64,000 nucleotides of DNA from sequence record MW269952.1. One strand, given 5' to 3'. The stretch is from Escherichia phage P479. A model generated the notes under the pieces. That model had not been told where the DNA came from. It saw nothing but the letters and a program-made list of their open reading frames with translations, and did no database searches. Of the stretch, positions 1 to 19,162 are shown piece after piece. The position numbers and the translations under genes are program-made. How positions within the stretch are numbered: position 1 is the stretch's first letter; each line of letters begins with the position of its first letter.

Positions 1-118
1 CTTTTGTATCTGGTCCGCCTAAACATTGAGGAACAACATGGTGAGATTCTTTGTATCCAGTCAATTTTCTAGATTTGGCTCGGTTCATTAAATTCTCATA
101 TATTAAAGCATAATTCAT
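1..118 (-). CDS. HNH homing endonuclease, N-terminal part (gene continues beyond the left window edge)
   Basis: Manual translation of the - strand from ATG at 116-118: MNYALIYENLMNRAKSRKLTGYKESHHVVPQCLGGPDTK..., with the same ESHH-(V/I)-(V/I)-P-(K/Q)-C-(L/M)-GG motif as the HNH ORF at 59552-60226. Not in the ORF track because truncated. Confidence 0.5.
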   Translation of the reverse strand, partial: MNYALIYENLMNRAKSRKLTGYKESHHVVPQCLGGPDTK

Positions 119-121
119 TGT

Positions 122-376
122 ATGTCCTCTTTGGTGATATACTATATTTATACTCAAGTAGTGGAGATGTGGAACCCTATGAATAATATCGAAAAGATTT
201 TTCGTACAATCGAAGAAATTGAAAAACGTAAATGCTTTTTCTTCGGCGTATGGCCTTTAACCGATGGACGTATTGGCCTGGATGTAATGGACTATAAAGA
301 TGAAGACAAGGTCGATGGCGGTATCTTTAAATCCGCTCCAGAACTCTTGACCTTCTTGGAAGAACATTATGTATAA
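122..376 (+). CDS. hypothetical protein (true start possibly ATG at 167)
   Basis: ORF track, 84 aa; no recognisable motif. Confidence 0.35.
   Translation: MSSLVIYYIYTQVVEMWNPMNNIEKIFRTIEEIEKRKCFFFGVWPLTDGRIGLDVMDYKDEDKVDGGIFKSAPELLTFLEEHYV
145..152 (-). promoter_or_regulatory. T4-type late promoter (TATAAATA on - strand) upstream of the partial HNH gene
   Basis: + strand tatttata = TATAAATA on -, 27 nt upstream of the ATG at 118. Confidence 0.45.
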
Positions 377-584
377 CAAACACCATGAAGTTGAAGAAGA
401 AGCTTATAAAGAGCTTCAGAAACTGGTAGGGCAGAATATGTCTCCTGCTCTTATCAACAACCTGGCTGCACTGCGCAATGACCTCAATGAACGGTACAAG
501 GGCGAATATTATGTTGAATTCGTTCCGCTGACTGAAGTCATTGACCGATTTATCGTTAATGTCAAGGTGCATACCGTCCATTAA
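369..584 (+). CDS. hypothetical protein
   Basis: ORF track, 71 aa; overlaps the upstream stop in T4-like fashion. Confidence 0.35.
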   Translation: MYNKHHEVEEEAYKELQKLVGQNMSPALINNLAALRNDLNERYKGEYYVEFVPLTEVIDRFIVNVKVHTVH

Positions 585-622
585 CGCTTTAAAAATTTTA
601 TGTTATAATGGGGTCTAGGTCC
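585..622 (+). promoter_or_regulatory. middle-promoter-like element (variant MotA box cGCTTTA, 14 nt, TATAAT) with conserved downstream GGGGTCTAGGTCC
   Basis: Box at 585-591, TATAAT at 604-609, conserved core 610-622; member of the TATAATGG(T/G)TCTAG family seen at five sites in this window. Confidence 0.4.
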
Positions 623-656
623 TTTGGATAACCCCAATAACTAAGCGAGAAAAGAA

Positions 657-935
657 ATGTTTCCTACATATTCTGAAATTGTTAAAGTAGTTTTTAGTCA
701 GATTGTATCTGATTATCTATACGAAAGCGTCGACACGTCGACTGAACTAAAGGTGCATGGTCGTTTGTCTGCTATTCTGGAAATCATGTTCCCGGATGCA
801 GTTGATGCAATCACTGTTCAACTCACACCTGGTGCAGCATTTGCAATTGTTCCGTTTAAAATTGATAACCACATTTTGGCTATTTCATGCAAAATGGACT
901 TCCAGAAACAAACGGTAGTTGTCGAAGCAATTTAA
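657..935 (+). CDS. hypothetical protein
   Basis: ORF track, 92 aa; preceded by the promoter-like element at 585-622. Confidence 0.4.
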   Translation: MFPTYSEIVKVVFSQIVSDYLYESVDTSTELKVHGRLSAILEIMFPDAVDAITVQLTPGAAFAIVPFKIDNHILAISCKMDFQKQTVVVEAI

Positions 936-937
936 GT

Positions 938-966
938 GTTTACTTTCACCACGGATGGTGTATAAT
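938..966 (+). promoter_or_regulatory. T4-type early promoter (GTTTAC, 17 nt, TATAAT)
   Basis: gtttac 938-943, tataat 961-966; followed by the conserved leader cacatgaggaaaacaaaATG, which recurs at 11513-11536. Confidence 0.55.
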
Positions 967-995
967 GAATTTCATCAACACATGAGGAAAACAAA

Positions 996-1517
996 ATGAG
1001 TAATTTCTTTGAAGAAGGCAAGTTTTACAAGTTCGCATCTGAAAATGCCAAAAAACAGTTTATTGCCGGAGGCTGGGCAGCTAATTACCAAATTGCCAAA
1101 TACATCGGTATGACTCCGTTTGAAGTGAAAATTGTACCTGATACCGCGAGCGGTGGAAGAAAAGTTTGTGAGATACGTTTGATTGATGAAAATGATTTTG
1201 TGGATTTGGCAAAAATATCTGGTGCAGAAAACAGGCATCATGGAGCAATGTTTGTTTCTGCTGGTCCATTGTCTGATGAATTTGATTATTTCATCCGGGC
1301 AGAAGTTGGTGTTAAGCCAGAAGTTGAACCTGTGCCAGTGAAACTTGCATCAGTTTGGAAATTGCTTGTGGTTAAAAATGGCAAGATTGAGATTAACTCT
1401 CGTCATGTGTCAAAAGAGCGAGCGGAAGGCGAAGCAGAGCGTCTGTTAAACCGTGGTACTGCAGAAGATTGCTATATTATCAAAGGCGATATCACAAAAG
1501 CTTCTATCATTAAATAA
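996..1517 (+). CDS. hypothetical protein, 173 aa
   Basis: ORF track; strong RBS gaggaaaacaaaATG; no recognisable catalytic motif. Confidence 0.5.
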   Translation: MSNFFEEGKFYKFASENAKKQFIAGGWAANYQIAKYIGMTPFEVKIVPDTASGGRKVCEIRLIDENDFVDLAKISGAENRHHGAMFVSAGPLSDEFDYFIRAEVGVKPEVEPVPVKLASVWKLLVVKNGKIEINSRHVSKERAEGEAERLLNRGTAEDCYIIKGDITKASIIK

Positions 1518-1537
1518 GTAAAACAGGAGACAATCTG

Positions 1538-1783
1538 ATGCTTAGCGAAACCCCAATTACTGTTGAAGAGTTCCACGAAAAAGTGAAGGCATTTGCTCAA
1601 GCGATGATTAATCACGTATCAGAGCGATTCCCTGCTGCGACTTTGCAAGTTATTCAGGAATCTGCACGCAGTTTTATGATTGTCATTAATCCGAAAATTA
1701 CTCTAAAAGGTGGTGACCAGTTGACCCAACTGAAATTGGGTTCTGACGGTCTGGTTGAAGCGCAGCGAGTGTATATTCAATGA
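1538..1783 (+). CDS. hypothetical protein
   Basis: ORF track, 81 aa; RBS aggag upstream. Confidence 0.45.
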   Translation: MLSETPITVEEFHEKVKAFAQAMINHVSERFPAATLQVIQESARSFMIVINPKITLKGGDQLTQLKLGSDGLVEAQRVYIQ

Positions 1784-2115
1784 TGAATTTAATGGATATT
1801 TTTCAGGAAGCACTTAAAAATGATTTGGGTGACCATCGTAAGTTGGACCCGGAGACAGCTGCATTTATCAAAGTAACGCTTGCGAATGATGCTCTGTTTA
1901 AAAGTATTCACCCAAGTAATTATGATGCGGTTGTTATCACAGAAGCTCCTGTAGAAATTGGTGAGCGAATGTTTGGGGTGATTTTTGACGATAAGAAAAA
2001 ACGCTTCAGCGATGGTGATAGTATAATTACAACACATGTTAAGAGCATTACTAAATTGCGACATGAATTATATCGTGTTGAAACTATTAAAACCAATTAT
2101 CTCGTGGTGATGTAA
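1780..2115 (+). CDS. hypothetical protein
   Basis: ORF track, 111 aa; ATGA start/stop overlap with the upstream ORF. Confidence 0.45.
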   Translation: MMNLMDIFQEALKNDLGDHRKLDPETAAFIKVTLANDALFKSIHPSNYDAVVITEAPVEIGERMFGVIFDDKKKRFSDGDSIITTHVKSITKLRHELYRVETIKTNYLVVM

Positions 2116-2697
2116 ATGAAACCAACTACTGTTCTGCAAATCGCATACCTTGTATCTCAAGAATCCAAATGTTGCTCCTGGAAAGTGGGAGCTGTTATTG
2201 AAAAGAATGGTCGCATTATTTCTACAGGGTATAATGGTTCCCCTGCGGGTGGGGTTAACTGTTGCGAGCATGCGGAAGAGCAAGGTTGGTTACTGAATAA
2301 ACCTAAACCAGTTCTCATCCCTGGTCATAAGTCAGAATGCGTGAGATTCAGTCAGGTTGACCGTTTTGTATTGGCGAAAGCTCATCGCGAAGCTCATTCG
2401 GCCTGGTCAAAGAACAACGAAATTCATGCCGAGCTTAATGCGATTCTGTTCGCAGCCAGAATGGGTTCGTCAATTGAAGGCGCTACTATGTATGTGACGC
2501 TTTCTCCTTGCCCTGATTGTGCAAAGGCAATTTCTCAATCAGGAATCAAGAAATTGGTTTACTGTGAAACGTATGATAAGAATATTCCTGGTTGGGATGA
2601 TATCCTGAAGAACGCGGGAATTGAGGTGTTCAATGTGCCTAAGCGTAGTCTAGACAAATTGAACTGGGAAAACATTAACGAATTTTGTGGTGAATAA
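2116..2697 (+). CDS. cd: dCMP deaminase
   Basis: 193 aa; zinc-binding deaminase motifs CEHAE and PCPDC visible; recalled similarity to T4 Cd; synteny upstream of gene 31. Confidence 0.85.
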   Translation: MKPTTVLQIAYLVSQESKCCSWKVGAVIEKNGRIISTGYNGSPAGGVNCCEHAEEQGWLLNKPKPVLIPGHKSECVRFSQVDRFVLAKAHREAHSAWSKNNEIHAELNAILFAARMGSSIEGATMYVTLSPCPDCAKAISQSGIKKLVYCETYDKNIPGWDDILKNAGIEVFNVPKRSLDKLNWENINEFCGE

Positions 2698-2930
2698 TGA
2701 AATTTCGTCTAGTTAAGTTTTCAGGTCTGAACTCAAAAGGTGAAAACCTGGTAGCCTATTCAGTAGAATATAAAAAGTACTTTTTCTCTCGTTGGAAATC
2801 GTACTATAAATCCGAGTGGGTTCGCCCCGAAATGAACTATAAAACGGTGCCTATTCTTGAAAATTGCCATAGCCTATTAAGAGCTCTAAAAGAGCGTAAT
2901 GCAACAACCATTAAAACTGTTTTGGAATAA
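2697..2930 (+). CDS. hypothetical protein (positional equivalent of T4 31.2)
   Basis: ORF track, 77 aa; synteny between cd and 31. Confidence 0.4.
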   Translation: MKFRLVKFSGLNSKGENLVAYSVEYKKYFFSRWKSYYKSEWVRPEMNYKTVPILENCHSLLRALKERNATTIKTVLE

Positions 2931-2932
2931 TT

Positions 2933-3232
2933 ATGATTTTAACTGAACAAGAAACAATTCGTCTCCGTGAAAAAGTCAAGACTATTTTGTCTGTTGGTTT
3001 TCACGAAGTTCTGTTTGAAAAAGCAGATGGTAGCATCCGCCGTATGACTTGTACTCGTGACCTGGACCTGCTGCCGCATAAAGAAATCCAGACCCCTGGA
3101 CCAGAAGCCAATAAAGAACCAGTTAGCTATATCCGGGTATTTGATACCAAGCTTAATGAATGGCGTTCATTCTGTTTCAATAAATTGATTTCCGTGAATG
3201 GTCTGCAGACCGAGACTCTGCTTGTCCTTTAA
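2933..3232 (+). CDS. hypothetical protein (positional equivalent of T4 31.1)
   Basis: ORF track, 99 aa; synteny. Confidence 0.4.
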   Translation: MILTEQETIRLREKVKTILSVGFHEVLFEKADGSIRRMTCTRDLDLLPHKEIQTPGPEANKEPVSYIRVFDTKLNEWRSFCFNKLISVNGLQTETLLVL

Positions 3233-3287
3233 TGCTTCAAACGGTGCGTGTTATTATTAATACATGACCAAACAACATGGATTAAAT

Positions 3288-3611
3288 ATGGAATTACCAA
3301 TTAAAGCAGTAGGTGAATATATTATTTTGGTTTCTGAGCCAAAGCAAGCTGGTGATGAAGAAACTACGGCATCAGGTATCGTTATCGGAAAACTCCATCA
3401 GGGTGAAATCCCAGAGATGTGCGAAGTATTTTCGGTTGGTCCGGATGTTCCCGAAGGTTTCTGTGAAGTGGGTGATTTGACTCCTCTTCCGGTTGGCAAG
3501 ATTGCAAACGTTCCACATCCTCTGGTTGCTCTGGGACTTAAGCAGGCTAAAGAAGTTAAGCAGAAATTTGTGACCTGTCATTATAAAGCTGTTCCTTGTC
3601 TTTATAAGTAA
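3288..3611 (+). CDS. 31: co-chaperonin for GroEL (GroES analogue) gp31
   Basis: Translation ...[33 protein letters not shown]...[14 protein letters not shown] matches recalled T4 gp31. Start chosen at the internal ATG (MELPIK); the ORF-track start 3264 is the alternative. Confidence 0.8.
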
Positions 3612-3768
3612 AATTAGCGTTATAAATAATAATATGGATTGGCTGCCGGACCAGTTAGTTAACCGGAGAATCCTAAACGGTGGACTACAACTGAGAGACT
3701 TGCCGAAAGGAAGTGAAATTCAGAAGAACGTGTCCACCAAATATTCACCTCATATTGAGGCTTCTAAA

Positions 3769-4023
3769 ATGTCTTTAAACAAACAATTACAACACGCTCT
3801 TGAACTGCAACGCACTGCATGGAATAACGGTCACGAAAACTACGGCGCATCTATTGATGTTGAAGCCGAAGCACTGGAAATTCTGCAGTATTTCAAACAT
3901 CTTAACCCGATTCAAACCGACCTTCGTGCAGTGCTCGAAGCAAAAGATGAACTGAAATTTGCTAAGCCACTGGCATCTGCTGCCCGTAAAGCTGTTCGCC
4001 ATTTTGTCGTAACTCTGAAGTAA
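3769..4023 (+). CDS. rIII: rIII lysis-inhibition accessory protein
   Basis: About 84 aa from the internal ATG; position immediately downstream of gene 31 as in T4. Assignment by synteny and size. Confidence 0.5.
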   Translation: MSLNKQLQHALELQRTAWNNGHENYGASIDVEAEALEILQYFKHLNPIQTDLRAVLEAKDELKFAKPLASAARKAVRHFVVTLK

Positions 4024-4422
4024 TTTATTGGAGATTCACTGCCTTAGTGTGAGCTAAAATCGAGGAGCCGTCGAATTGTCTGATTAATGATTTGCGAATC
4101 ATTATAGTTTTAAGACCTCGGCAATTTTATGGTGTACCTCTTGAATGTTATTCTTATAGCGGCAAGTGCATGCTACCCCGAGGTGATGGCCAATCGGGAG
4201 TACGCCTCAAGGCCTATATATCCATCAGTATATATCTTATCCTCGAGAAATCGAACCCGGAACCTTTAAGCTAACGGTGTGCAACAGATAAGAGCTATAA
4301 GGTATGATGACGAGGTTTATGGTTATCCTGTCGTAAAATATCCGAAACCTAATGTTCCCTTCGAGGGCTTGCGCAGGCAATGTCAATAAGTCCTGCATTC
4401 TATTTTAAAGAGAATTTAATAT

Positions 4423-4581
4423 GGCTAAGAAAGAAGTTAAAGTTGTTGATGGCTCCTCCAAACGCGCTGGTTACAAGCGTGCGTCCAACAAGCGAATCAA
4501 TCAGGTGACTGATAAACTTCAGGCTCGTGCTCGTGCGGTATTGCGTGCCGATGCAGCTTGCTTTGGTAAGCCGAAAGCATA
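4423..4581 (+). CDS. small basic protein, 52 aa
   Basis: ATG at 4423 with upstream agag; MAKKEVKVVDGSSKRAGYKRASNKRINQVTDKLQARARAVLRADAACFGKPKA; followed directly by a terminator. Below the ORF-track size cutoff. Confidence 0.4.
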
Positions 4582-4587
4582 AGTTCA

Positions 4588-4615
4588 GGGACTCTTCGGA
4601 GTCCCTTTTTTATTT
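4588..4615 (+). terminator. rho-independent terminator
   Basis: ggactc-ttcg-gagtcc hairpin followed by a T-run (ttttttatttt). Confidence 0.7.
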
Positions 4616-4626
4616 TCCATAAAGGG

Positions 4627-4656
4627 GTTTACAACAGGGTTTGACCAGTACATAAT
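4627..4656 (+). promoter_or_regulatory. T4-type early promoter (GTTTAC, 18 nt, CATAAT) with conserved leader gattccatactgagtta
   Basis: gtttac 4627-4632, cataat 4651-4656; a near-identical cassette lies at 27629-27699. Confidence 0.55.
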
Positions 4657-4697
4657 GATTCCATACTGAGTTACCAAATAAAACACTGGAGAATAAA

Positions 4698-5066
4698 ATG
4701 AAAATCAATCTTAACTCATACATCAAAGGTAAAGACCACGACGGGTACAAAGCCATTGAAACTAAAGAAATGCAATGGCACTTGTATAAAGAACAATTTG
4801 AATTTGTTGGTTGCATGACTCCAGAAGGTCCTTCTGATGACTTCTCTTGGAAAATTATGGTAACAAACTTTTTTACTGGTGATACCTACGAACTGAAAAC
4901 TATCGTAACTGGTAAGATTCGTTGTAAGACCTATGAAGATGAAGAAACTGGTTATTCTGAAGATGTTACATGGTATCAAAATGGTCGCACCACTGCAGAC
5001 CTTCTGATTGAAAAAATGAAAGCTAAGGGTGAATTAAATTTAGATAATTGGATTAAAGTCGCATAA
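4698..5066 (+). CDS. hypothetical protein, 122 aa
   Basis: ORF track; RBS ggag upstream. Confidence 0.5.
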   Translation: MKINLNSYIKGKDHDGYKAIETKEMQWHLYKEQFEFVGCMTPEGPSDDFSWKIMVTNFFTGDTYELKTIVTGKIRCKTYEDEETGYSEDVTWYQNGRTTADLLIEKMKAKGELNLDNWIKVA

Positions 5067-5137
5067 AACAGTTTACTTTGGTACAGGTTATGATATTATA
5101 GACCTGTACCAACAAATGAAAACAACTGGAGAATAAA

Positions 5138-5503
5138 ATGAACTACATCAACTTTGAACGCAAATATGTTTCTAACTGCATCCCAGGTTCTTCTGAAGTT
5201 ATTTGCTTGTGGAAACATAAAAATGGTTCAGTGTGCGAAATTGAACAGTATATGACTCCTAACTACGTTTATATGCGATTTGAAAATGGTATCACCCTTT
5301 CAATCACTATGACTGGTTCAACCTTTAAAATTGCTTTAGATGATGATTTCCGTGAACGTGATTTAGGGACTCATCCTTGCTGGAATGGTGTTAATCGCAA
5401 GCTGTTGGTTAAAACTTGGATTCGTCACATCCTGAGCAACAAAGCAAAACCTGAACACCTGGAAGCAATCTTTGATGTAGTTCTTAATGAATTTGATATC
5501 TAA
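5138..5503 (+). CDS. hypothetical protein, 121 aa
   Basis: ORF track; RBS actggagaataaaATG is shared with the 4698 ORF. Confidence 0.5.
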   Translation: MNYINFERKYVSNCIPGSSEVICLWKHKNGSVCEIEQYMTPNYVYMRFENGITLSITMTGSTFKIALDDDFRERDLGTHPCWNGVNRKLLVKTWIRHILSNKAKPEHLEAIFDVVLNEFDI

Positions 5504-5539
5504 TCTTAAATGGGGCGAAAGCCCCTTGAGGAAAATACT

Positions 5540-5827
5540 ATGTTTATGACTACCTACTTTGATACACGCAAAAATTTCTGTGAAGTTGTTTTCTCTAAAA
5601 AAGGCCCTAATGTTCCTGCTGGGCGTGAACCAACTAAAGAATCCATTAAAAACTATGTGGATATAGTTTGCCCAGTTGAATTCAGGACTGTTAATGGATG
5701 TGATACCCTGGCAATCACCAAGCTTAGACGCGACATTGATATTGAACCAATTGCAGCACGTGAAATTAATTCGTCTGATATTAATGGCGGTAATGTTAAA
5801 TCACACGGTTTTCAGATGAGGTTCTAA
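5540..5827 (+). CDS. hypothetical protein
   Basis: ORF 5510-5827; internal ATG at 5540 has a better RBS (gagga). Confidence 0.4.
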   Translation: MFMTTYFDTRKNFCEVVFSKKGPNVPAGREPTKESIKNYVDIVCPVEFRTVNGCDTLAITKLRRDIDIEPIAAREINSSDINGGNVKSHGFQMRF

Positions 5828-6021
5828 TGCAACTATTCTTATCGCAAACTGTTCAGTTAAAAGGTGTGGGTATTCCTGGAATGATTTCTAAGGTTTTGCC
5901 TGCTTTTAAATTCGGTGGTATTGTAATTAAAGAAGCGTATCTAGTCTTGTGGGTTGATGGAACAGAAGACGTTCGCATGAGCGGTGAACTGTCTGTAATC
6001 AAATGTTTAAGGCGAGGATAA
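5827..6021 (+). CDS. hypothetical protein
   Basis: ORF track, 64 aa; coupled to the upstream stop. Confidence 0.35.
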   Translation: MQLFLSQTVQLKGVGIPGMISKVLPAFKFGGIVIKEAYLVLWVDGTEDVRMSGELSVIKCLRRG

Positions 6022-6022
6022 T

Positions 6023-6235
6023 ATGTTTAAGAAACTGATTCAGAAAATTTTGGGAACAGAAATGGTTGAAGTTACTTATTCAGTTATTGACCATAGTCCT
6101 TATCTTCAAGATAACAAAGAAAAAGTTATTAAAAAGATTATCCTTAAAAAGCATAACAGCTTATCTATTGAAGACCGTCTACCTGGTTATGGTCATTGGG
6201 CTGATGTAGATATTATCAGTGTCAAAGATGTCTGA
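6023..6235 (+). CDS. hypothetical protein
   Basis: ORF track, 70 aa. Confidence 0.4.
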   Translation: MFKKLIQKILGTEMVEVTYSVIDHSPYLQDNKEKVIKKIILKKHNSLSIEDRLPGYGHWADVDIISVKDV

Positions 6236-6686
6236 GTTAGAAATCAGAAGCAATTTCCCATGGCCGTCATGTGCATTAAGTAACTTTGCTAAATGGCCTT
6301 TTGTTATGGATGGCATCCAGTTTGGAGGTCTTGAAGGCTTCCTCCAAGGGTGCAAGGTGAGAAATAATGAACAACAAAAACGTATATTTGGGATGTCCGG
6401 ATTGGCCGCCCAGCAAAGTGGAAGAGCTTATGCAAGAGCTGCGGACCGTGGGACGCTTTTCTGGCGTGGAATTCCCTTTTCAAGATACTCTACAGCATGG
6501 AAAGAGTTGTATACAAATGCATATTTTGAAGCAGCGCTCCAAAACAAAGGATTCCGCGACGCATTACAAGCCACAAAGGGCAAAGTTTTAAAGCATTCGA
6601 TGGCGAGCCACCTTACTGTTCATGATACAATATTGACTGAACAAGAATTTATTGACATACTTAACCAATTGAGAGATGCATTATGA
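6228..6686 (+). CDS. NADAR-family (YbiA-like, DUF1768-type) protein; positional equivalent of T4 30.3
   Basis: Motif LSNFAKWPFVMDGIQFGGLEGFLQGCK matches the SNFA-WP...DG...E...K pattern of E. coli YbiA/NADAR as recalled; synteny in the 30.x cluster. Confidence 0.55.
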   Translation: MSELEIRSNFPWPSCALSNFAKWPFVMDGIQFGGLEGFLQGCKVRNNEQQKRIFGMSGLAAQQSGRAYARAADRGTLFWRGIPFSRYSTAWKELYTNAYFEAALQNKGFRDALQATKGKVLKHSMASHLTVHDTILTEQEFIDILNQLRDAL

Positions 6687-7531
6687 AACCCGTTATTTTA
6701 ACCGATATTGATGGCGTATGTTTGTCATGGCAGTCTGGCTTGCCTTATTTCGCTCAAAAATATAATTTACCCCTGGAACATATCCTTAAGATGATTCAGG
6801 ATGAAAAATTTGTGACCCCTGGTAAACTGTTCAATTGTGATGAAGAGTTAGGAGCGCAGTTAATTGAAAAATATAACTGTTCAGATTTTATTCGCTATTT
6901 GTCTCCTTACACAGATGCGTTAAGGGTTATTAATAACCTCAAAGAGCAATATGATTTTGTGGCTGTTACAGCCCTGGGTGATTCTATTGATGCTCGCCTG
7001 AATCGTCAATTCAACCTGAATGCTTTGTTCCCTGGGGCGTTTAAAGAAGTGATGATGTGTGGTCATACAGCCTCTAAAGAAGAGTTATTCCAGAAAGCGA
7101 AGACCAAATATAATGTCGTTTGTTATATTGATGACCTTGCACACCATTGCGACCATGCGAGTGAAATCCTTGAAGTCCCGGTTTATTGGATGGCTCGTGG
7201 TGAACGTGATGCTATTCCTAAAACAGCTTCCAAAGTTTTTAATTGGGACGATGTTGCTGGACAGCTTAAACTGAAACACAAAGATGAACCGGTCAAGCCA
7301 GAATACACCCCTGATGAACTCCGTAAACTGGACGAGCTGTTTCGTGAAACTCGCCGTCTTCAGCAGCAAATGCAGCAAGGCTGGCAGCCAGGTCAACCAT
7401 GGACTCCTGGATATAATCCAGCGTATCCATATCAATATAATCCAGCGTACCCATATCAATATGGTCCACGCGTAGGTACTGGCATTGAATATTGGTACAA
7501 TCAACCGACCGGTGGCCAAGGGGGTAATTGA
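6683..7531 (+). CDS. HAD-superfamily-like hydrolase with Q/P/Y-rich low-complexity C-terminal tail (positional equivalent of T4 30.2)
   Basis: N-terminal ILTDIDGV resembles the HAD phosphatase motif I (DxDG); C-terminus ...QQQMQQGWQPGQPWTPGYNPAYPYQYNPAYPYQYGPRVG... is encoded by a tandem 24-bp repeat. Confidence 0.5.
   Translation: MKPVILTDIDGVCLSWQSGLPYFAQKYNLPLEHILKMIQDEKFVTPGKLFNCDEELGAQLIEKYNCSDFIRYLSPYTDALRVINNLKEQYDFVAVTALGDSIDARLNRQFNLNALFPGAFKEVMMCGHTASKEELFQKAKTKYNVVCYIDDLAHHCDHASEILEVPVYWMARGERDAIPKTASKVFNWDDVAGQLKLKHKDEPVKPEYTPDELRKLDELFRETRRLQQQMQQGWQPGQPWTPGYNPAYPYQYNPAYPYQYGPRVGTGIEYWYNQPTGGQGGN
7414..7461 (+). repeat. tandem 24-bp direct repeat x2 (one mismatch) inside the 6683-7531 CDS
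   Basis: taatccagcgtatccatatcaata / taatccagcgtacccatatcaata; encodes the duplicated NPAYPYQY. Confidence 0.85.
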
Positions 7532-7809
7532 TGTTTGTCGTTCATACTATTTCAGACCATGGTCCAGTCACCACGATGGATTACGGTCATGTTAACCAGT
7601 TTATTCGTCATGTGAATCATAATTACTCGTTTGATATTAATCCGGCCAAGGATAACCCCATCTGGCGGGAATGTGTTGAACAAGGATTTATCTATGTTCA
7701 CTTCATGACTAAAATGAAACCAGATGGGGCGACTAAATTTGTGTTCACTTATCATAAGCGGTTGGATTTGCTTTTGGAAGATGTGGCATATAATAGAGCC
7801 AACGACTAA
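7528..7809 (+). CDS. hypothetical protein (positional equivalent of T4 30.1)
   Basis: ORF track, 93 aa; ATGA overlap with the upstream gene. Confidence 0.45.
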   Translation: MMFVVHTISDHGPVTTMDYGHVNQFIRHVNHNYSFDINPAKDNPIWRECVEQGFIYVHFMTKMKPDGATKFVFTYHKRLDLLLEDVAYNRAND

Positions 7810-7812
7810 GAG

Positions 7813-9351
7813 GTGATTATGATTTTAGATATTTTAAATGAAATTGCTGCAACCGATTCCACTAAAGAGAAACAAGCTATCCTGGAATCGTATTCTGACA
7901 ATGAAACCCTCAAACGTGTGTATCGTTTGACATATTCCAAAGGCATCCAGTTCTATATTAAGAAATGGCCAAAACCTGGGACAACGACTCAAAGCTTTGG
8001 TATGCTGAATATCGATGATATGCTTGACTTTATTGAATTCACATTAGCCTCTCGTAAATTAACAGGTAATGCTGCAATCGAGGAATTATCTGGCTATATT
8101 GCTGATGGTAAAAAAGCAGATGTTGAAGTCCTGCGGCGTGTTATGATGCGTGACCTGGAATGCGGGGCATCCGTATCAATTGCGAATAAGGTTTGGAAAG
8201 GTTTAATTCCTGAACAACCACAGATGCTCGCTTCTTCCTATGATGAAGCCGGTATTGCCAAGAACATTAAGTTCCCGGCCTTTGCGCAATTGAAAGCCGA
8301 CGGCGCTCGGTGTTTTGCAGAAGTTCGTGGCGATGAGTTGGATGATGTTCGATTGCTATCCCGAGCTGGTAACGAATACCTTAAGCTTGACCTCCTTAAA
8401 AAGGAATTGATTGAAGCTACCCGTGAAGCGCGTGAGAGGCATCCTGAGGGCGTTTTGATTGACGGCGAGTTAGTATATCATGAACAGAAAATAGCTCCAC
8501 AGAATGATGGTTTGGGTTTCCTTTTTGACGATTCAGATGAGATTGCTCCTGCAAAAGAAACCGCAGAATCAAGAACATTTTCGAATGGTATGGCAAACAA
8601 ATCATTAAAAGGAACCATTTCTGCAACAGAAGCTTCTTGCATGAAATTCCAGGTTTGGGATTATGTTCCACTGATTGAAGTCTATTCTGATGTTAAGATT
8701 CTCAATCCGTTGAAATACGATGTGCGTTTTGCTGTTCTGGAAAAGATGATTGCAGATAACGTGGTGCTACATGGTTTCGACCGCATGATTCTGATTGAAA
8801 ACCATGTTGTTAACAATCTCGATGAAGCGAAGGTTATCTATAAGAAATATGTGGATGAAGGTCTTGAAGGTATTATCCTTAAGAACATGGCATCGATTTG
8901 GGAAAACAAGCGCTCAAAGAACTTGTACAAGTTCAAAGAAGTAATTGACATTGCAATGGAAATCATTGGATATTACGAGCACGATAAAGACCCGAATAAG
9001 ATTGGCGGTGTTGTGCTTCGTTCTTCTTGTGGTAAGATTACAAATAACTGTGGTTCTGGTTTTAAAGACACAACTCAAGTTAAAGATAAGAAAACCAAAA
9101 AATGGGTTACTATTCCGATTGAGGAGCGTCATGAAATGGACCGTGAAGCCTTGATGGTTAAAGCCCGTAAAGGTGAATTGGTTGGAATGATTGCCGACTG
9201 TGAATGTAATGGTTGGTTGACTTCCGAGACTCGTAAAGATAATACGGTTGCATTGTTCCTGCCGATTATCAAAGGGTTCCGTTTCGATAAAGACCATGCA
9301 GACACATTCGAAGATGTATTTGGCGACTGGTCAAAGACCGGGTTAAAATAA
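7813..9351 (+). CDS. 30: ATP-dependent DNA ligase gp30
   Basis: 512 aa; N-terminus MILDILNEIAATDSTKEKQAILESY... matches recalled T4 ligase; adenylation motif KADG (AQLKADGAR) present. Confidence 0.9.
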   Translation: MIMILDILNEIAATDSTKEKQAILESYSDNETLKRVYRLTYSKGIQFYIKKWPKPGTTTQSFGMLNIDDMLDFIEFTLASRKLTGNAAIEELSGYIADGKKADVEVLRRVMMRDLECGASVSIANKVWKGLIPEQPQMLASSYDEAGIAKNIKFPAFAQLKADGARCFAEVRGDELDDVRLLSRAGNEYLKLDLLKKELIEATREARERHPEGVLIDGELVYHEQKIAPQNDGLGFLFDDSDEIAPAKETAESRTFSNGMANKSLKGTISATEASCMKFQVWDYVPLIEVYSDVKILNPLKYDVRFAVLEKMIADNVVLHGFDRMILIENHVVNNLDEAKVIYKKYVDEGLEGIILKNMASIWENKRSKNLYKFKEVIDIAMEIIGYYEHDKDPNKIGGVVLRSSCGKITNNCGSGFKDTTQVKDKKTKKWVTIPIEERHEMDREALMVKARKGELVGMIADCECNGWLTSETRKDNTVALFLPIIKGFRFDKDHADTFEDVFGDWSKTGLK

Positions 9352-9352
9352 C

Positions 9353-9374
9353 AAAAGGGCTTCGGCCCTTTTTT
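9353..9374 (+). terminator. rho-independent terminator after the ligase gene
   Basis: gggc-ttcg-gccc hairpin followed by tttttt. Confidence 0.65.
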
Positions 9375-9376
9375 AG

Positions 9377-9384
9377 TATAAATA
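9377..9384 (+). promoter_or_regulatory. T4-type late promoter TATAAATA upstream of alt
   Basis: tataaata 25 nt upstream of the alt ATG. Confidence 0.6.
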
Positions 9385-9409
9385 CATCATATTTTATAAG
9401 GAACCTATT

Positions 9410-11470
9410 ATGTCTGAACAATTAAATGAACTCTTTGACAAATATATCGAAGCCTTCGATTATCCTGTCATTAATATGAATCCGAAATACAAGGTCCCAC
9501 AGGTTTGGCAATTCGGTGTTCCTGGGACCAATTCTCTTATGGCCCGTTTGATGCAATTCACGGGCAAAGAAACAGTTAAACAATATAAACGCGGCGATGC
9601 AATTGCCGAGGTATTCCTGCTCTCCGGGACTTCACATGGCCATGCTGTTCCTCTGAAGGGTGGTCTAGGTGAAAAACCTCTTGATGCGATTAACCTGATT
9701 TTTGTTACAGTCTGGGAAAGCATTAAACTAGGCAAACCTGATGTAGTCTTGTTCCGTTTCCCATCCAAAAAGATGAAAGGGCAAGACCAAGCTGTTATTC
9801 GTATTATGAATCGACTGATTCAAATGAAAACCAGCGGGCGTTATCATGTTCTTCCAAATGCTTCTGGTCTCGGTAAAAAGAACGCATACGTAATTATGTA
9901 CAAAAAGGGTGTTGACCTGCTTTCGGTTGATGGTATGCCACCAGTCCCTGAGAAATATCAAAAAGTTGAAACTAAAGTTGGCGATGTATTCACCAATAAA
10001 GATACAGGTGCACAAGTCTCCAAACAAGAAATCGCAGCCGAAGTTCTGATTGACGCAGCAAACAAAAAGACCGATGCTGCTGTTGCCCAGAAAACTAAAA
10101 TAAGTCGCCGAGCTATTGCACAAGCCCAGTATGCTCCAAGTGATTCCGTGCCCGATGGCTGGGACGAAATTGATGCAGAAGCTGCTAAGTTTAGTCGACC
10201 GGCTACGGCAGAACTTATCGATGATTATGAAGAACTGGAAATTTTTGTTCGACCTTCCGAAACGAATACTATGGCTCGTATGCGCGCAGCAGATGAGGCT
10301 ATGCGAGCAAATGGTGTTTGGAAAGAAGAAATTCGTGTTGAAGACTCTGACCCAATTTTTAACCGTATGCATCGTGAACTTAAACGTGCCCCTGTTGGCA
10401 GTATGAAGCAGATGCAGATTTTTGCCGAATCATGTGCCGAGATTCTTAACCTTCGCAAAGCCGCATTTATCGAAAGAAAAATGAATGATGCTCCTCCTAA
10501 CCTGGATGCAGCCACTTATGCAGCCTCGCTCTGGGAAAAAGAATACACAAGCGCCATTCGTGTTGCAGTTAAAGACTTTGCCGAAGAAGCATCAGAAAAT
10601 ACTCTTAATTTCACAGCAGGATATACTGACAACCGTTTCCATTATGGCCAGCGAGAAGCAATTGCAGATTATTGTGGAGCAAACTATGCCGATATTAATA
10701 ATTATTTGATGGGCAAATATTATGAAGAAGAAGCTGAATTCCTAAATCTAGACAGAGTTGTCGAAACAATTAAGGAATTGGATTCGGCCTTTGAAATTGG
10801 ACATAAGTTGCCGCCTAATACAACTCTTTGGCGTGGTCAATATTTAAACGTTCCTACATTTGATAAAATTAAGAAATCTAAATTATTTTATTTCAGGAAC
10901 TATGTATCAACGTCGTTTAAACCGATTATCTTTGGTGGCTGGGTGGCGAACGTTGCTATGGCTGCAGTTCATCAGGACTATCGTGATGGGACATCTTTCC
11001 AGGCTGATGACGAAATTGTTTTACCAGATATGCCAGCTGTACGCCGCGACCATGTAATGATGCATGTTGGTTGGAAAATTTCTGGGGCGGACTTAATTAA
11101 CGTAATTGTTCCTGGGGAATTGTCAAGCAACCCGTCCGAGCAGGAAGTTATTCTTCCTCGTGGGACTGTAGTTAAGATTACCAAAATTACTGATGCTTCG
11201 TATCAAGGAAACGCGAACGTCAAAATGCTGGAAGCTGATATCCAGACTACGGACCAACTGGATGAAAATGCAGTTATCTATGATGGTGATGTGTTGATGG
11301 AAACTGGTGAGCTTGTCGTTTATCAGGGCGAGGAATCAGAAGAGCCAGTAGAATCTGTTGACTTTGCATCGTTTGCATCCTCTGGGGTGACGAAGAAAGT
11401 CAATCAAGGTCTTGGTATTCTTGCTAGTTGTATTAATTTGGAAGCTATTCCTCCTAAATTCCTTTCGTAG
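9410..11470 (+). CDS. alt: Alt-like ADP-ribosyltransferase (virion-packaged)
   Basis: 686 aa (T4 Alt about 680 aa); position adjacent to gene 30 as in T4; C-terminal block ...NVVLPGELSSNPSEQEVILPRGTVVKITKITDASY... resembles recalled T4 Alt. Confidence 0.75.
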   Translation: MSEQLNELFDKYIEAFDYPVINMNPKYKVPQVWQFGVPGTNSLMARLMQFTGKETVKQYKRGDAIAEVFLLSGTSHGHAVPLKGGLGEKPLDAINLIFVTVWESIKLGKPDVVLFRFPSKKMKGQDQAVIRIMNRLIQMKTSGRYHVLPNASGLGKKNAYVIMYKKGVDLLSVDGMPPVPEKYQKVETKVGDVFTNKDTGAQVSKQEIAAEVLIDAANKKTDAAVAQKTKISRRAIAQAQYAPSDSVPDGWDEIDAEAAKFSRPATAELIDDYEELEIFVRPSETNTMARMRAADEAMRANGVWKEEIRVEDSDPIFNRMHRELKRAPVGSMKQMQIFAESCAEILNLRKAAFIERKMNDAPPNLDAATYAASLWEKEYTSAIRVAVKDFAEEASENTLNFTAGYTDNRFHYGQREAIADYCGANYADINNYLMGKYYEEEAEFLNLDRVVETIKELDSAFEIGHKLPPNTTLWRGQYLNVPTFDKIKKSKLFYFRNYVSTSFKPIIFGGWVANVAMAAVHQDYRDGTSFQADDEIVLPDMPAVRRDHVMMHVGWKISGADLINVIVPGELSSNPSEQEVILPRGTVVKITKITDASYQGNANVKMLEADIQTTDQLDENAVIYDGDVLMETGELVVYQGEESEEPVESVDFASFASSGVTKKVNQGLGILASCINLEAIPPKFLS

Positions 11471-11472
11471 GG

Positions 11473-11502
11473 GTTTACAAGCACAAGGAAGTGCGATACA
11501 AT
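11473..11502 (+). promoter_or_regulatory. T4-type early promoter (GTTTAC, 18 nt, TACAAT)
   Basis: gtttac 11473-11478, tacaat 11497-11502; followed by the same leader cacatgaggaaaacaaaATG as at 976-998. Confidence 0.5.
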
Positions 11503-11533
11503 GTTCATATCAATTGCACATGAGGAAAACAAA

Positions 11534-11824
11534 ATGAAATCATCTTTTCGCTTTAATGGTCAGGAACTGGTAGTTGAGAATGTTATCCCGGCTTCAGAAG
11601 AGTTTGACAGCGCGGTGGGTAATGAACTGCGGCGCGTGTTTGGCGAAGATAAGAAGTTTGACCTTCGCCCTGTTGAAAACTTTGTAAATTCTGAACAAAC
11701 AGAAAATATTTTTAATGGTGTAGTAACTGGGCAACTTGAATCTGAAGCACCAATTGCAATTACAGTCTTTGCTAAGAAAGAAGTTGTAATGACTGCAGCA
11801 GGTTTCATTTCATTCCGCAAATAA
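11534..11824 (+). CDS. hypothetical protein (alt-downstream small ORF)
   Basis: ORF 11501-11824; internal ATG at 11534 with RBS gaggaaaacaaa. Confidence 0.45.
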   Translation: MKSSFRFNGQELVVENVIPASEEFDSAVGNELRRVFGEDKKFDLRPVENFVNSEQTENIFNGVVTGQLESEAPIAITVFAKKEVVMTAAGFISFRK

Positions 11825-11853
11825 AAAAGGGACCTTCGGGTCCCTTTCTTTTT
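11823..11853. terminator. bidirectional terminator hairpin (GGGACC-ttcg-GGTCCC) between the convergent 11534 ORF and gene 54
   Basis: Perfect 6-bp stem flanked by an A-run on the left and a T-run on the right. Confidence 0.7.
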
Positions 11854-12811
11854 ATAATATACGTTGACTTCCACCAGAGACTGTTCTCCCAGAACCAGTG
11901 AACGTATTGTACAGACTTGTTAATCCAGATTGAGCACCAGACAAGCGGCTCAATTTGGCAACTTCTGAGTTCAAGTTGTTATCTGAACTAATACCAGATA
12001 CACCCTTAATAACCTTATCTTCCAACCATTCCAATGCCGCAGCTCTTCCCACCGCACCAGTTGACATAACGCGATAAGCAAAAGTCACATCAAATGTAGC
12101 TATCTGATTATCCCCTTCATAGCTCAATTCAGGCGCAGATACACTTACAGGAACACAACCAGTTAACATAACAACCGTGTGCGGTAACCCATTACGTGAA
12201 TGAAGGTTAACCTGAATATCAGCTTCAACGTCTTCAGGCAAAGCCCTTAGCTGGGTAACTGGGTCCTGTACAGAGTTAACCCAATCGTTAAATGCTCTGA
12301 AGTTCCCTGCCTCTGAATCCATTCTAAAGCTCAATACCAACGGAGAATATTCTCTCCCGGTTATCTTGATATTTGGTGCATTATGGTTAAGGTCCATTTC
12401 GTAGTTCAATGTGTTATCCGGAAGCTTAACAGAGTGAACTAATAGACCAGCCGTTGGATATGCCATATTAAAGAAATCAAGTAGGTAAGTACCAACCTCA
12501 AATTCCCCCAATAATGATTGCACAACACGGTTACTCATTGCACCGATAAGATATTTGCTTATCCCTGATTTACGAATAAGCTTTTGTGTTCCGGCCGTAA
12601 CAAGAGTTGTTATCCCCTGAGTTAAGTCACCTTGTGTTAATCCGAACCAATCTGAGTTAACAGGAAGGTTACTGAATAATGCACCCCCGAACTGGTCCAG
12701 AAGATTCTGAGATTTGGAGGAAGGCGTGGTCGCGAAGACCACACTAAAAAGGTTATTCCTCTGCAAGTCGATATTAATCGCTTGTGTTTGAAATTCTTGT
12801 AAAGTAAACAT
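11852..12811 (-). CDS. 54: baseplate tail-tube initiator gp54
   Basis: 319 aa (T4 gp54 320 aa); synteny 54-48-29-28-27-51. Confidence 0.8.
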   Translation of the reverse strand: MFTLQEFQTQAINIDLQRNNLFSVVFATTPSSKSQNLLDQFGGALFSNLPVNSDWFGLTQGDLTQGITTLVTAGTQKLIRKSGISKYLIGAMSNRVVQSLLGEFEVGTYLLDFFNMAYPTAGLLVHSVKLPDNTLNYEMDLNHNAPNIKITGREYSPLVLSFRMDSEAGNFRAFNDWVNSVQDPVTQLRALPEDVEADIQVNLHSRNGLPHTVVMLTGCVPVSVSAPELSYEGDNQIATFDVTFAYRVMSTGAVGRAAALEWLEDKVIKGVSGISSDNNLNSEVAKLSRLSGAQSGLTSLYNTFTGSGRTVSGGSQRIL

Positions 12812-13905
12812 TAGAAACCTTCCGCATATAGTGAGCCACGGTTAAGCGTAATGATTTCACGGAAAGTGATTTCAAGTACAAAAGTCGATGGCAGGTTAGG
12901 AGCAATAGCTAATCCACCGAAATGACCATCCGGAGATTTATCGAATCTTATACTCTGAATCTGACACGGCCCAAATAGCTCCCCACGGCCATCGTATGAG
13001 CTTGTATCACCGAAGTTGCGGATATACCAGATGGTAGGGTTAGAGACCACCAGAACGTTCGTTAGGAAGCTTGTTATCTCTTCACCGAGCAACTTGCCGT
13101 CAAAGTTATCGATTGCTTCTTTTTTGAAGGTGGATTTATACCATGTGTCGATTTTATCTTTCAACTCGGAAGCAAACGAACTTTTACCGGTTTCCCCATA
13201 GGAATAATAGTTAAAAATCTCGTATATCTTCACTATCTGGATTAAGTCCTGGGCCGAACGTGGAGTCATTTCCCAGGTGTAAACTTTTGTCCTGTTATCC
13301 GGACCAGCATACATGCTTCGTGCGGTTGTGTAAATCTGTTCGCCATGGTCGGCCATTACACCGTTTGTAACTGATTCGAGTGCGCCGAAAACTGCAGTCG
13401 ATGCGATGTTACTAAGAATACCTGTAGCTGAGCCGCCCCCTTTCGTAATAAGAGATTCACCAACATCGTTGAATCGGTGTGATACGGATTCTACATCAGA
13501 CTTCGAACGAGGCAACAGGATATTTGCAACAGCGTTTGAATCAAAACTTTTACCTGTTGAGCCCGCCCCGGTTAATTTCGATTTAGCAAAAGATGTTAAA
13601 CTTTTAACCGGGTTAAATGAAGCACCATTGGAAACTTTCTTTAATGAAGTCAATTGGCTTGACCTATCTGAGCGTAATTCCGGAGATGTTCTTGAACTGA
13701 AATTGTATGCCGTGAATAACAGACCATTTTTATAAAGGTCATTAACTCGCATATCATCTGAAGAATCATTACCGGAAGCTCGTTCTGCTGGATATTGCGC
13801 CACAATAGTAGCTTGAGTCTGGGCAGCTTTTGACTGCCCAGCGGAGGTCTTAGAACCTCCGTTAAATAAACCCGCAATATCAATATCGAGTTCTTTTACT
13901 TTCAT
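12811..13905 (-). CDS. 48: baseplate tail-tube cap gp48
   Basis: 364 aa (T4 gp48 364 aa); synteny. Confidence 0.8.
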   Translation of the reverse strand: MKVKELDIDIAGLFNGGSKTSAGQSKAAQTQATIVAQYPAERASGNDSSDDMRVNDLYKNGLLFTAYNFSSRTSPELRSDRSSQLTSLKKVSNGASFNPVKSLTSFAKSKLTGAGSTGKSFDSNAVANILLPRSKSDVESVSHRFNDVGESLITKGGGSATGILSNIASTAVFGALESVTNGVMADHGEQIYTTARSMYAGPDNRTKVYTWEMTPRSAQDLIQIVKIYEIFNYYSYGETGKSSFASELKDKIDTWYKSTFKKEAIDNFDGKLLGEEITSFLTNVLVVSNPTIWYIRNFGDTSSYDGRGELFGPCQIQSIRFDKSPDGHFGGLAIAPNLPSTFVLEITFREIITLNRGSLYAEGF

Positions 13906-13913
13906 GTTATTCC

Positions 13914-15659: not shown

Positions 15660-16170
15660 TTAGGAGTTCCATTATTTTCAGTAACCCCTTAACAGGACCA
15701 TTCGGACCCGGGATTGCTAATGTGCTTGTGATATCGTCTGCCCACTTAGCAACAAAAGCAGGCATATCCAGAAAGTCTGGAACATCTTCCCCGAGATAAA
15801 GGGTCTCCAGGAGATTGTCAACTGGTCCGAATTCTTCATACGGTTTATTGGAGCGGAATTTAAATGTCTTTCCTTGATAAGAAAATTCAAGGCGCTGACA
15901 GATATAAACAGCATCCAGCTTATATGTAAATCCATTAATCTCGCGTTTGTCTTTTAGCTTACCATTAAATTCCAGAAGATGTAAAGATACAAAGTCGGAT
16001 TCGGCTGCTGTAAGATTAGGGAATATCGATTGCATAATCTTTCTTAATGCAACATAAGGATTAGGTTCGTTTTTAATCAGATTGTGATGCTTGAGTCCAA
16101 GCTTGGGAACGTGAATCTCTTTATCACCCAGCTGTATTTTCTTCGTCGGCAGAATCAGTTTTAAGTTCAT
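15652..16170 (-). CDS. 28: baseplate hub distal subunit gp28
   Basis: ORF 15652-16212; start placed at internal ATG 16170 ([10 protein letters not shown]...) by recalled similarity to the T4 gp28 N-terminus; overlaps the 3' end of gene 27. Confidence 0.6.
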
Positions 16171-18042: not shown

Positions 18043-18066
18043 AGAATCCCCTTTTATCTTTATTGA

Positions 18067-18078
18067 TATTTATAAATA
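18067..18078. promoter_or_regulatory. overlapping divergent late promoters (TATAAATA on both strands) for genes 51 and 26
   Basis: tatttataaata: - strand TATAAATA at 18067-18074 (25 nt before the gene 51 ATG), + strand TATAAATA at 18071-18078 (17 nt before the gene 26 ATG). Confidence 0.6.
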
Positions 18079-18095
18079 CAGTAAAGGAGCAAATT

Positions 18096-19146: not shown

Positions 19147-19162
19147 TTACATTGGATACATT

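What the first reader, a model, noticed from the sequence alone, without database searches (positions are those of the whole stretch)
996..1517. 173-aa protein of unknown function driven by its own early promoter cassette
Seen: the largest uncharacterised ORF in the early block; strong RBS and the duplicated early promoter/leader cassette (938-998). No motif I can recognise. Inference: accessory early gene; early, individually promoted genes in this region of T4-like phages are often host-takeover or anti-defence factors.
Basis: inference. Interest (0 to 1): 0.4.

Follow-up and report, generated by a model that had tools for sequence, protein, structure and literature searches.

The report
GoF-family early gene, SP18-like phage
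The 173-aa ORF is a real early gene of an SP18-like T4-type phage and an extra, divergent member of the recently described GoF/Frd.2 family of small phage proteins, whose function is still unknown; it is a useful annotation but not a surprising find.

The parts
938..966 (+). T4-type early promoter: -35 GTTTAC (938-943), 17-nt spacer, -10 TATAAT (961-966). It corresponds to T4 Pe133295 at the cd.3/cd.2 junction.
   Evidence: It is the only exact match in the window, with 0.02 expected. It aligns with the T4, JS98 and second window cassettes and is conserved in 6 relatives. The T4 record annotates the promoter. Unlike the T4 and JS98 versions, it has no stem of 6 bp or more.
967..995 (+). Short 5' leader with Shine-Dalgarno GAGG (984-987). 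The 21-nt block 979-999 is repeated exactly at 11517-11537.
   Evidence: Sequence read; blastn-short gives 21/21, E 8e-7; alignment.
996..1517 (+). CDS of 173 aa (stop included), homologue of SP18_gp231, JS98 orf212 and VR7_gp232; PHROG family phrog_5804.
   Evidence: (phrog_5804, E 5.7e-66). dN/dS is 0.06-0.25 among Gaprivervirus copies.
996..1304 (+). N-terminal domain (residues 1-103): GoF/Frd.2-type small beta-barrel ('LSm-like', FeoA/SH3-like), acidic (pI 5.4).
1305..1349 (+). Linker (residues 104-118, EVGVKPEVEPVPVKL), predicted disordered and variable in length among relatives.
   Evidence: pLDDT below 50 for residues 106-117; indels in this stretch.
1350..1514 (+). C-terminal domain (residues 119-173): basic (pI 9.3) beta-beta-alpha-beta module, private to this subfamily.
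1515..1517 (+). Premature TAA stop (CAA = Gln in SP18 and all relatives). It removes the tail QVKQETI and the TGATG stop/start overlap with cd.2.
   Evidence: The exact 173-aa sequence is absent from the 15-billion-protein collection.
1538..1783 (+). cd.2 (81 aa, DUF7320), the next cistron. In T4 it sits directly behind the same promoter and leader.
11473..11537 (+). Second copy of the cassette type: GTTTAC-N18-TACAAT followed by the identical 21-nt leader and ATG, in front of a 96-aa ORF (11534-11824) downstream of alt.

Best explanation
The ORF is a genuine early gene of an SP18-like T4-type phage (Gaprivervirus). It is the first cistron of the transcript started at the conserved early promoter, which in T4 (Pe133295) lies directly in front of cd.2. 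It encodes a two-domain protein. The first part is an acidic ~100-residue small beta-barrel homologous to the N-terminal domain of T4 GoF and Frd.2, the 'LSm-like fold' family of non-essential Tevenvirinae early proteins. A disordered linker follows. The last part is a basic ~55-62-residue beta-beta-alpha-beta domain found only in this subfamily (phrog_5804). It is an additional paralogue, not the GoF orthologue: the related phage VR7 has a separate GoF. Shown: the gene, the promoter homology, the family membership of the N-domain, the domain architecture, the narrow distribution and purifying selection. Inferred only: by analogy with GoF, whose D25Y mutant stabilises gene 41 mRNA post-transcriptionally, the protein most likely acts early in infection on RNA or on host RNA-handling, transcription-termination or decay machinery. 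In this reading the shared N-domain is the common platform and the private C-domain supplies the target specificity. It is probably dispensable in standard laboratory growth. I put family membership at about 0.9 and the RNA-level mechanism at about 0.3.
For: Gene reality: ORF, RBS and promoter, 83 phage records with a full-length homologue, dN/dS 0.06-0.25. Early expression: the cassette aligns with the T4 Pe133295 cassette, including the leader AAATGAGGAAAACAAAATG, and is conserved across the genus. Family: the window protein hits phrog_2980 'goF' at 7.9e-9 and phrog_622 at 1.9e-4 over residues 5-105. phrog_622 is the family of T4 GoF (4.6e-38) and Frd.2 (4.1e-46), and is weakly hit by MotB.1 (1.3e-3). 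T4 GoF reciprocally hits phrog_5804 at 1.6e-5 over residues 1-99. hhalign of the family profile against T4 GoF gives E 2e-6, and BLASTP gives 5e-5. Structure: the AF2 model has pLDDT 80 with an N-domain, a disordered linker and a C-domain. [quoted passage not shown] Foldseek against BFVD gives 45 hits at E<=1e-3, all to phage proteins, most of those named from T4-like phages, and VR7 GoF at rank 48, E 1.1e-3. Functional analogy: GoF(D25Y) raises reporter RNA half-life, and frd.2 is the single fitness gene of unknown function in the T4 CRISPRi-ART screen.
Confidence: 0.4

Rival explanations
1. The protein is a protein-binding adaptor or inhibitor, a host-takeover or anti-defence factor. In this reading the SH3/Tudor-like N-barrel and/or the small C-domain bind a host protein (such as a defence effector, protease adaptor, or RNAP/Rho/NusG-type factor) rather than RNA.
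Against: There is no hit to PADLOC models and no similarity to any characterised anti-defence protein. ClpS and the other matches are weak and generic. The C-domain lacks the two helices that lie between the first two strands of ClpS (from my recollection of the ClpS structure, compared with the topology). No partner has been identified.
Confidence: 0.3
2. The protein is a small nucleic-acid (DNA) binding regulator acting through the basic C-domain, for example an early transcriptional or nucleoid modulator.
Against: The matches are at the same weak level as many unrelated alpha/beta folds. There is no helix-turn-helix or other DNA-binding motif in Pfam or NCBIfam. The C-domain's charge is only moderate.
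Confidence: 0.1
3. The protein is an accessory subunit or regulator of nucleotide metabolism, because it is co-transcribed with dCMP deaminase.
For: It lies in the cd operon, upstream of cd.2, cd.1 and cd.
Against: There is no enzyme or nucleotide-binding motif. T4 has the same operon without this gene. Distant homologues sit elsewhere, between 30.8 and 30.7, so the linkage to cd is not conserved.
Confidence: 0.05
4. In this particular phage the gene is decaying and is an incipient pseudogene, as signalled by the premature stop.
For: A CAA>TAA nonsense change is seen only in this window; the pattern carrying it is absent from IMG/VR.
Against: Only 7 of 180 residues are lost. In the model of a full-length relative the last ~17 residues are coil with pLDDT 69-77, outside the beta-beta-alpha-beta core. 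There is only 1 other non-synonymous difference from SP18. The promoter, RBS and reading frame are intact.
Confidence: 0.05

Closest known systems
T4 GoF (comC-alpha; 141 aa) and the GoF/Frd.2/MotB.1 'LSm-like fold' family of Tevenvirinae early proteins (Kim et al. 2025, PMC12152347)
   Same: The N-terminal ~100-residue barrel domain is homologous. It shares the motifs F-x-E-x-x-K-[WF]-Y, G-M-x-P-F-[EK]-[VI] and E-x-x-[FY]-F-x-E-V (seen by eye). The architecture is also N-domain, flexible linker, variable C-domain. Both are driven by an early promoter, restricted to T4-like phages, and share the FeoA/IdeR nearest PDB folds.
   Different: The C-domain is different: basic beta-beta-alpha-beta here, against the acidic, Glu/Gln-rich tail of GoF. 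The locus is different (cd.3/cd.2 rather than 39/cef). It is a separate PHROG (5804 rather than 622). It is an additional paralogue alongside a bona fide GoF in the same phage group (VR7 GoF). GoF D25 aligns with Gly-Gly-Trp here.
T4 Frd.2 (128 aa)
   Same: It belongs to the same PHROG superfamily neighbourhood: phrog_622 is hit by both. The weak hhalign alignment spans the whole N-domain, residues 6-109 against 2-95.
   Different: The pairwise match is not significant on its own (E 0.022). Frd.2 is widely conserved and scored as a fitness gene in T4, whereas this subfamily is confined to a few genera.
PeSL (promoter-early stem-loop) regulatory cassettes of T4-like phages (Arbiol et al. 2010; Comeau et al. 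2014, PMC4122927)
   Same: It is an early promoter of the TTTACW...TAYWAT type with SD and start codon at its 3' end. It lies at an indel boundary between related phages (T4 lacks the ORF). Leader sequences recur elsewhere in the genome.
   Different: The window copy has no stem-loop of 6 bp or more, whereas the JS98 and T4 copies carry a 10-bp and a 7-bp stem across the -10 box. There is only one cassette and no second flanking copy between the ORF and cd.2.
FeoA and the IdeR/SloR C-terminal SH3-like domains; Hfq/LSm
ClpS (N-degron adaptor of ClpAP)
   Different: The score is low and there is no sequence-level hit. The C-domain is a beta-hairpin, helix and strand, and lacks the helices that form the ClpS N-degron pocket (from my recollection of the ClpS structure, compared).

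Membership tests
GoF/Frd.2/MotB.1 LSm-like fold family (Tevenvirinae early proteins) | N-terminal domain homologous in sequence to the GoF/Frd.2 N-domain | tested here: met
   The window protein hits phrog_2980 (goF) at 7.9e-9 and phrog_622 at 1.9e-4 over residues 5-105. phrog_622 holds T4 GoF (4.6e-38) and Frd.2 (4.1e-46), and T4 GoF hits phrog_5804 at 1.6e-5. hhalign gives E 2e-6 and BLASTP 5e-5.
GoF/Frd.2/MotB.1 LSm-like fold family (Tevenvirinae early proteins) | Predicted bent antiparallel small beta-barrel N-domain whose nearest solved folds are FeoA/IdeR-type SH3-like domains (and Hfq) | tested here: inconclusive
GoF/Frd.2/MotB.1 LSm-like fold family (Tevenvirinae early proteins) | N-domain joined by a flexible linker to a variable C-domain | tested here: met
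   The linker (residues 106-117) has pLDDT below 50. The C-domain is a separate beta-beta-alpha-beta module. The linker region shows indels in relatives.
GoF/Frd.2/MotB.1 LSm-like fold family (Tevenvirinae early proteins) | Early gene of T4-like phages, with no homologues outside phages | tested here: met
   The early promoter is homologous to T4 Pe133295. The search of 1.84e9 representative proteins gave only 9 hits, of which 2 are spurious repeat proteins; the relatives traced to a source all come from T4-like phage records or contigs. Expression timing itself was not measured.
GoF/Frd.2/MotB.1 LSm-like fold family (Tevenvirinae early proteins) | Effect on RNA stability or RNA binding (shown only for the GoF D25Y mutant) | not testable with these tools
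   This needs reporter, CLIP or half-life assays. Sequence gives no support: the N-domain has pI 5.4.
PeSL mobile regulatory cassette | Sigma-70-like early promoter (TTTACW...TAYWAT) followed by SD and start codon | tested here: met
   GTTTACT...TATAAT at 938-966, GAGG at 984-987, ATG at 996. The consensus is taken from PMC4122927.
PeSL mobile regulatory cassette | Associated stem-loop structure | tested here: not met
   There is no inverted repeat of 6 nt or more in 880-1000, and the fold z-score is +0.75. The JS98 copy has a 10-bp stem (-20 kcal/mol, z -3.3) and the T4 copy a 7-bp core.
PeSL mobile regulatory cassette | Located at indel or replacement boundaries between related phages, with copies elsewhere in the genome | tested here: met
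   In T4 the same cassette abuts cd.2 directly; here the ORF lies between them. The 21-nt leader is repeated at 11517-11537.
ClpS adaptor family | Sequence membership (ClpS core) and N-degron pocket | tested here: not met
Known anti-phage-defence / anti-defence catalogues | Match to a PADLOC model or to a solved anti-defence protein | tested here: not met
   There are 0 PADLOC families at E<=1 for the window protein and three relatives, and no match in the PDB sequence searches.

The most novel reading that the evidence does not exclude
The two-domain subfamily (a GoF-type barrel plus a private basic beta-beta-alpha-beta domain) could be a diversifying set of early counter-defence or host-factor-hijacking proteins. 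It hops between slots of the cd-30 hyperplastic region behind PeSL-type cassettes and expands into tandem arrays in some phages. In this reading each C-domain variant targets a different host protein, for example an RNA-targeting toxin, Rho/NusG/RNAP, or ClpA through ClpS mimicry. That would also give the first clue to what wild-type GoF and Frd.2 do.
Probability: 0.12. Interest if true: 0.6.

Novelty: new member of a known kind. Interest (0 to 1): 0.3.

Why it matters
The result turns a 'hypothetical protein' annotated in more than 80 Gaprivervirus and Dhakavirus genomes into a recognisable member of the GoF/Frd.2 family. That family was defined only in 2025 and its wild-type function is still unknown. 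One member, frd.2, is the only unknown-function fitness gene found in a genome-wide T4 screen. A natural paralogue has a different C-domain, a different residue set at the GoF D25 position, and tandem-array relatives. This provides comparative material for working out what the family does. It is also a clean example of a gene sitting between a conserved early promoter/leader cassette and the gene that cassette serves in T4. Beyond that it is an ordinary accessory gene of a T4-like hyperplastic region.

Tried and rejected
These searches gave nothing.
- Pfam, NCBIfam and PADLOC scans returned no families for the window protein.
- PDB sequence searches with the single sequence and with the profile returned only chance hits (E 1.3 and 0.65).
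- The exhaustive HMMER search of 1.84e9 representatives gave 9 hits, of which 2 are spurious repeat proteins (P0039, P0040).
- Pairwise profile comparisons with T4 MotB.1 (E 0.14) and Frd.2 (E 0.022) were not significant alone. The link to them goes through the PHROG profiles.
- hmmsearch of all six-frame ORFs of the window with the N-domain and C-domain profiles found no paralogue in the window.
- The repeat finder in 1-8000 did not show the 'duplicated cassette'. A short-word blastn of the whole window was needed to find the 21-nt leader copy.

These could not be run or were unavailable.
- The AFDB50 fold library was not available.
- The supplementary tables of PMC12152347 are not held, so I could not check whether this subfamily is in their tree.

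These were considered and rejected.
- An IMG/VR pattern search for the TAA allele found none.
- I rejected ClpS membership, a nucleotide-metabolism role and pseudogene status, for the reasons given under the rival explanations.

Full report
**What is there**

Window 996-1517 (+) holds an ATG-initiated ORF of 173 codons. A GAGG Shine-Dalgarno lies 8 nt upstream (984-987). Upstream again is GTTTAC-N17-TATAAT at 938-966. This is the only exact match to that T4-early-type pattern in the 64-kb window, where 0.02 matches are expected by chance. A generic sigma-70 scan of 1-6000 is not enriched over shuffles (15 sites against 15.5). The case for the promoter therefore rests on the specific consensus and on conservation.

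The window is a T4-like phage of the genus Gaprivervirus. Positions 900-1600 are 99.3% identical to Shigella phage SP18, and 1-20000 is about 97% identical to SP18 and Escherichia phage 212. In SP18 the ORF is SP18_gp231, a 'hypothetical protein' lying between cd.3 and cd.2 upstream of cd.1 and the dCMP deaminase gene cd. The homologues JS98 orf212 and VR7_gp232 occupy the same slot.

**Is it a real gene?**

A full-length homologue occurs in 83 phage records: 32 at 80% amino-acid identity or above (Gaprivervirus) and 51 below 60%; those listed are about 43-46% identical (Dhakavirus/JS98 type). Nei-Gojobori dN/dS among six Gaprivervirus alleles is 0.06-0.25, which indicates clear purifying selection.

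The window's allele differs in one respect. All relatives are 175-184 aa and end in ...KQVKQETI, with the TGA stop overlapping the cd.2 ATG (TGATG). The window has TAA where SP18 has CAA at 1515-1517. This removes 7 residues and leaves a 20-nt gap before cd.2. The exact 173-aa sequence is not in the 15-billion-protein collection, and the pattern carrying the TAA is not in IMG/VR. In a model of the full-length C-domain the last ~17 residues are coil with pLDDT 69-77, outside the folded core. The truncation is therefore probably harmless. This is an inference.

**The promoter cassette**

The T4 record annotates an early promoter, Pe133295, between cd.3 and cd.2. The T4 sequence there reads GTTTAC-N18-TATTAT-...-AAATGAGGAAAACAAAATG and runs straight into cd.2. 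The window, JS98 and T4 cassettes align from the cd.3 stop through the start codon.

So the same promoter and leader that serves cd.2 in T4 is fused here to the 173-aa ORF, and cd.2 follows as the next cistron. No convincing terminator appears on the + strand until 4587-4606. The promoter is thus the head of a polycistronic early unit and is not private to this ORF.

The 21-nt leader 979-999 recurs exactly at 11517-11537, behind GTTTAC-N18-TACAAT (11473-11502) and in front of a 96-aa ORF downstream of alt. The promoter spacers are unrelated.

These features resemble the PeSL (promoter-early stem-loop) cassettes proposed to mediate modular shuffling in T4-like phages (PMC4122927). The window copy lacks a stem-loop, however. 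The JS98 and T4 copies carry a 10-bp and a 7-bp stem across the -10 box.

**What the protein is**

Pfam, NCBIfam, PADLOC and PDB sequence searches are empty. An exhaustive HMMER search of 1.84 billion representative proteins found only 9 hits, and 2 of those are spurious repeat proteins. The family is therefore very narrow.

PHROG profiles give the key link. The protein is a full-length member of phrog_5804 (5.7e-66). Its N-terminus also hits phrog_2980 'goF mRNA metabolism modulator' at 7.9e-9 and phrog_622 at 1.9e-4 over residues 5-105. phrog_622 is the family of both T4 GoF (4.6e-38) and T4 Frd.2 (4.1e-46), and is weakly hit by MotB.1 (1.3e-3). T4 GoF reciprocally hits phrog_5804 at 1.6e-5 over its residues 1-99. 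The family profile against T4 GoF gives hhalign E 2e-6, and plain BLASTP gives 5e-5.

[quoted passage not shown] They have an N-terminal 'LSm-like' five-stranded barrel, a flexible linker and variable C-domains, and their nearest PDB folds are FeoA, SloR, IdeR and Hfq (PMC12152347).

**Structure**

AlphaFold2 on a 15-sequence alignment gives pLDDT 80.
- The N-domain spans residues 1-103, with strands 10-13, 42-48, 55-62 and 99-101 plus short bridges, and two helices between strands 1 and 2.
- Residues 106-117 form a disordered linker.
- The C-domain is beta-beta-alpha-beta.

Foldseek against BFVD returns 45 hits at E<=1e-3, all to phage proteins; most of those with a name come from T4-like phages. 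Many are aligned over both domains, and VR7 GoF is found at E 1.1e-3. Because VR7 carries both GoF and this ORF, the ORF is an extra paralogue and not the GoF orthologue.

**Relatives elsewhere**

The most distant sequence homologues are P0038 (Serratia phage LC53 type) and P0041. They lie in the same hyperplastic region but in another slot, between 30.8 and 30.7. There they sit next to one or two further paralogues with the same N-domain, for example three tandem ORFs of 171, 173 and 172 aa in L008. The window itself has no second detectable member.

**How it probably works**

Shown here: the protein is an early, accessory, two-domain member of the GoF/Frd.2 family, under purifying selection, mobile within the cd-30 hyperplastic region.

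Inferred only: the function. The single functional datum in the family is that GoF(D25Y) raises gene 41 mRNA levels and reporter RNA half-life post-transcriptionally, whereas WT GoF and MotB.1 do not. frd.2 scored as a fitness gene in a T4 CRISPRi-ART screen, although amber mutants plate normally.

I therefore favour an early post-transcriptional or RNA-machinery role, at about 0.3. A protein-binding adaptor or inhibitor role is almost equally likely, also about 0.3. It is supported by the acidic barrel, the SH3/Tudor-like neighbours and the tandem diversifying arrays. A nucleotide-metabolism role and pseudogene status are unlikely.

GoF D25 aligns with G25-G26-W27 here. Whether that matters is untested.

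**Novelty**

No paper in the held library mentions this ORF. It is a new subfamily of a known, recently defined family. That is a helpful annotation and useful comparative material, but it is not a surprise for a T4-like hyperplastic region.

Noticed in passing
window 1515-1517 (and 1518-1537): A CAA>TAA nonsense change relative to SP18 and all other relatives removes the last 7 residues (QVKQETI). It also uncouples the TGATG stop/start overlap with cd.2. This allele was not found in the protein collection, and the pattern carrying the TAA was not found in IMG/VR.
   Followed up: yes
window 979-999 and 11517-11537 (second cassette 11473-11537): There is an exact 21-nt repeat of the leader, SD and start (CACATGAGGAAAACAAAATGA). 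The second copy follows GTTTAC-N18-TACAAT and precedes a 96-aa ORF (11534-11824) downstream of alt (9410-11470). It looks like a PeSL-type regulatory cassette reused at two loci.
   Followed up: partly
L003 (JS98) 2451-2480; L004 (T4) 5294-5321; window 938-975: The JS98 and T4 versions of the cd.3/cd.2 early promoter carry a 10-bp and a 7-bp inverted repeat straddling the -10 box (JS98 fold -20 kcal/mol, z -3.3). The Gaprivervirus version has lost it and keeps only a short CACCA(Y)GGATGGTG palindrome in the spacer.
   Followed up: partly
L008 3477-5042; L006 3523-4525: In Serratia-phage-like contigs the family forms tandem arrays of 2-3 paralogues (171, 173 and 172 aa) between 30.8 and 30.7. 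The 148-151-aa ORFs downstream of 30.7 show a similar C-terminal S-x-E-x-A...V-x-V pattern by eye.
   Followed up: partly
window 1-118, minus strand: The left end of the window cuts into the N-terminus of an HNH-type homing endonuclease (MNYALIYENLMNRAKSRKLTGYKESHHVVPQCLGGPDTK...). It is the homologue of SP18_gp235, which lies between pseT and cd.4 on the opposite strand.
   Followed up: no
window 3634-4023: The rIII ORF is 129 aa here, and is annotated the same way in SP18, against 82 aa in T4 and JS98. An internal ATG (MSLNKQL...) would give a T4-sized protein, so the long form may be an over-extended call.
   Followed up: no
window 983-1000: The conserved leader contains a 5-codon mini-ORF (ATG AGG AAA ACA AAA TGA) whose stop overlaps the start codon of the gene. 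The same arrangement is present in the T4 cd.2 leader and in the second window cassette.
   Followed up: no
window 7411-7458: There is a tandem 24-nt direct repeat (ATATAATCCAGCGTAYCCATATCA, two copies, 96% identical).
   Followed up: no
window 1524-1528: The cd.2 Shine-Dalgarno is GGAG (caGGAGac), the motif cleaved by the T4 RegB endoribonuclease in early mRNAs (from my general knowledge of T4). The ORF's own SD is GAGG, not GGAG.
   Followed up: no
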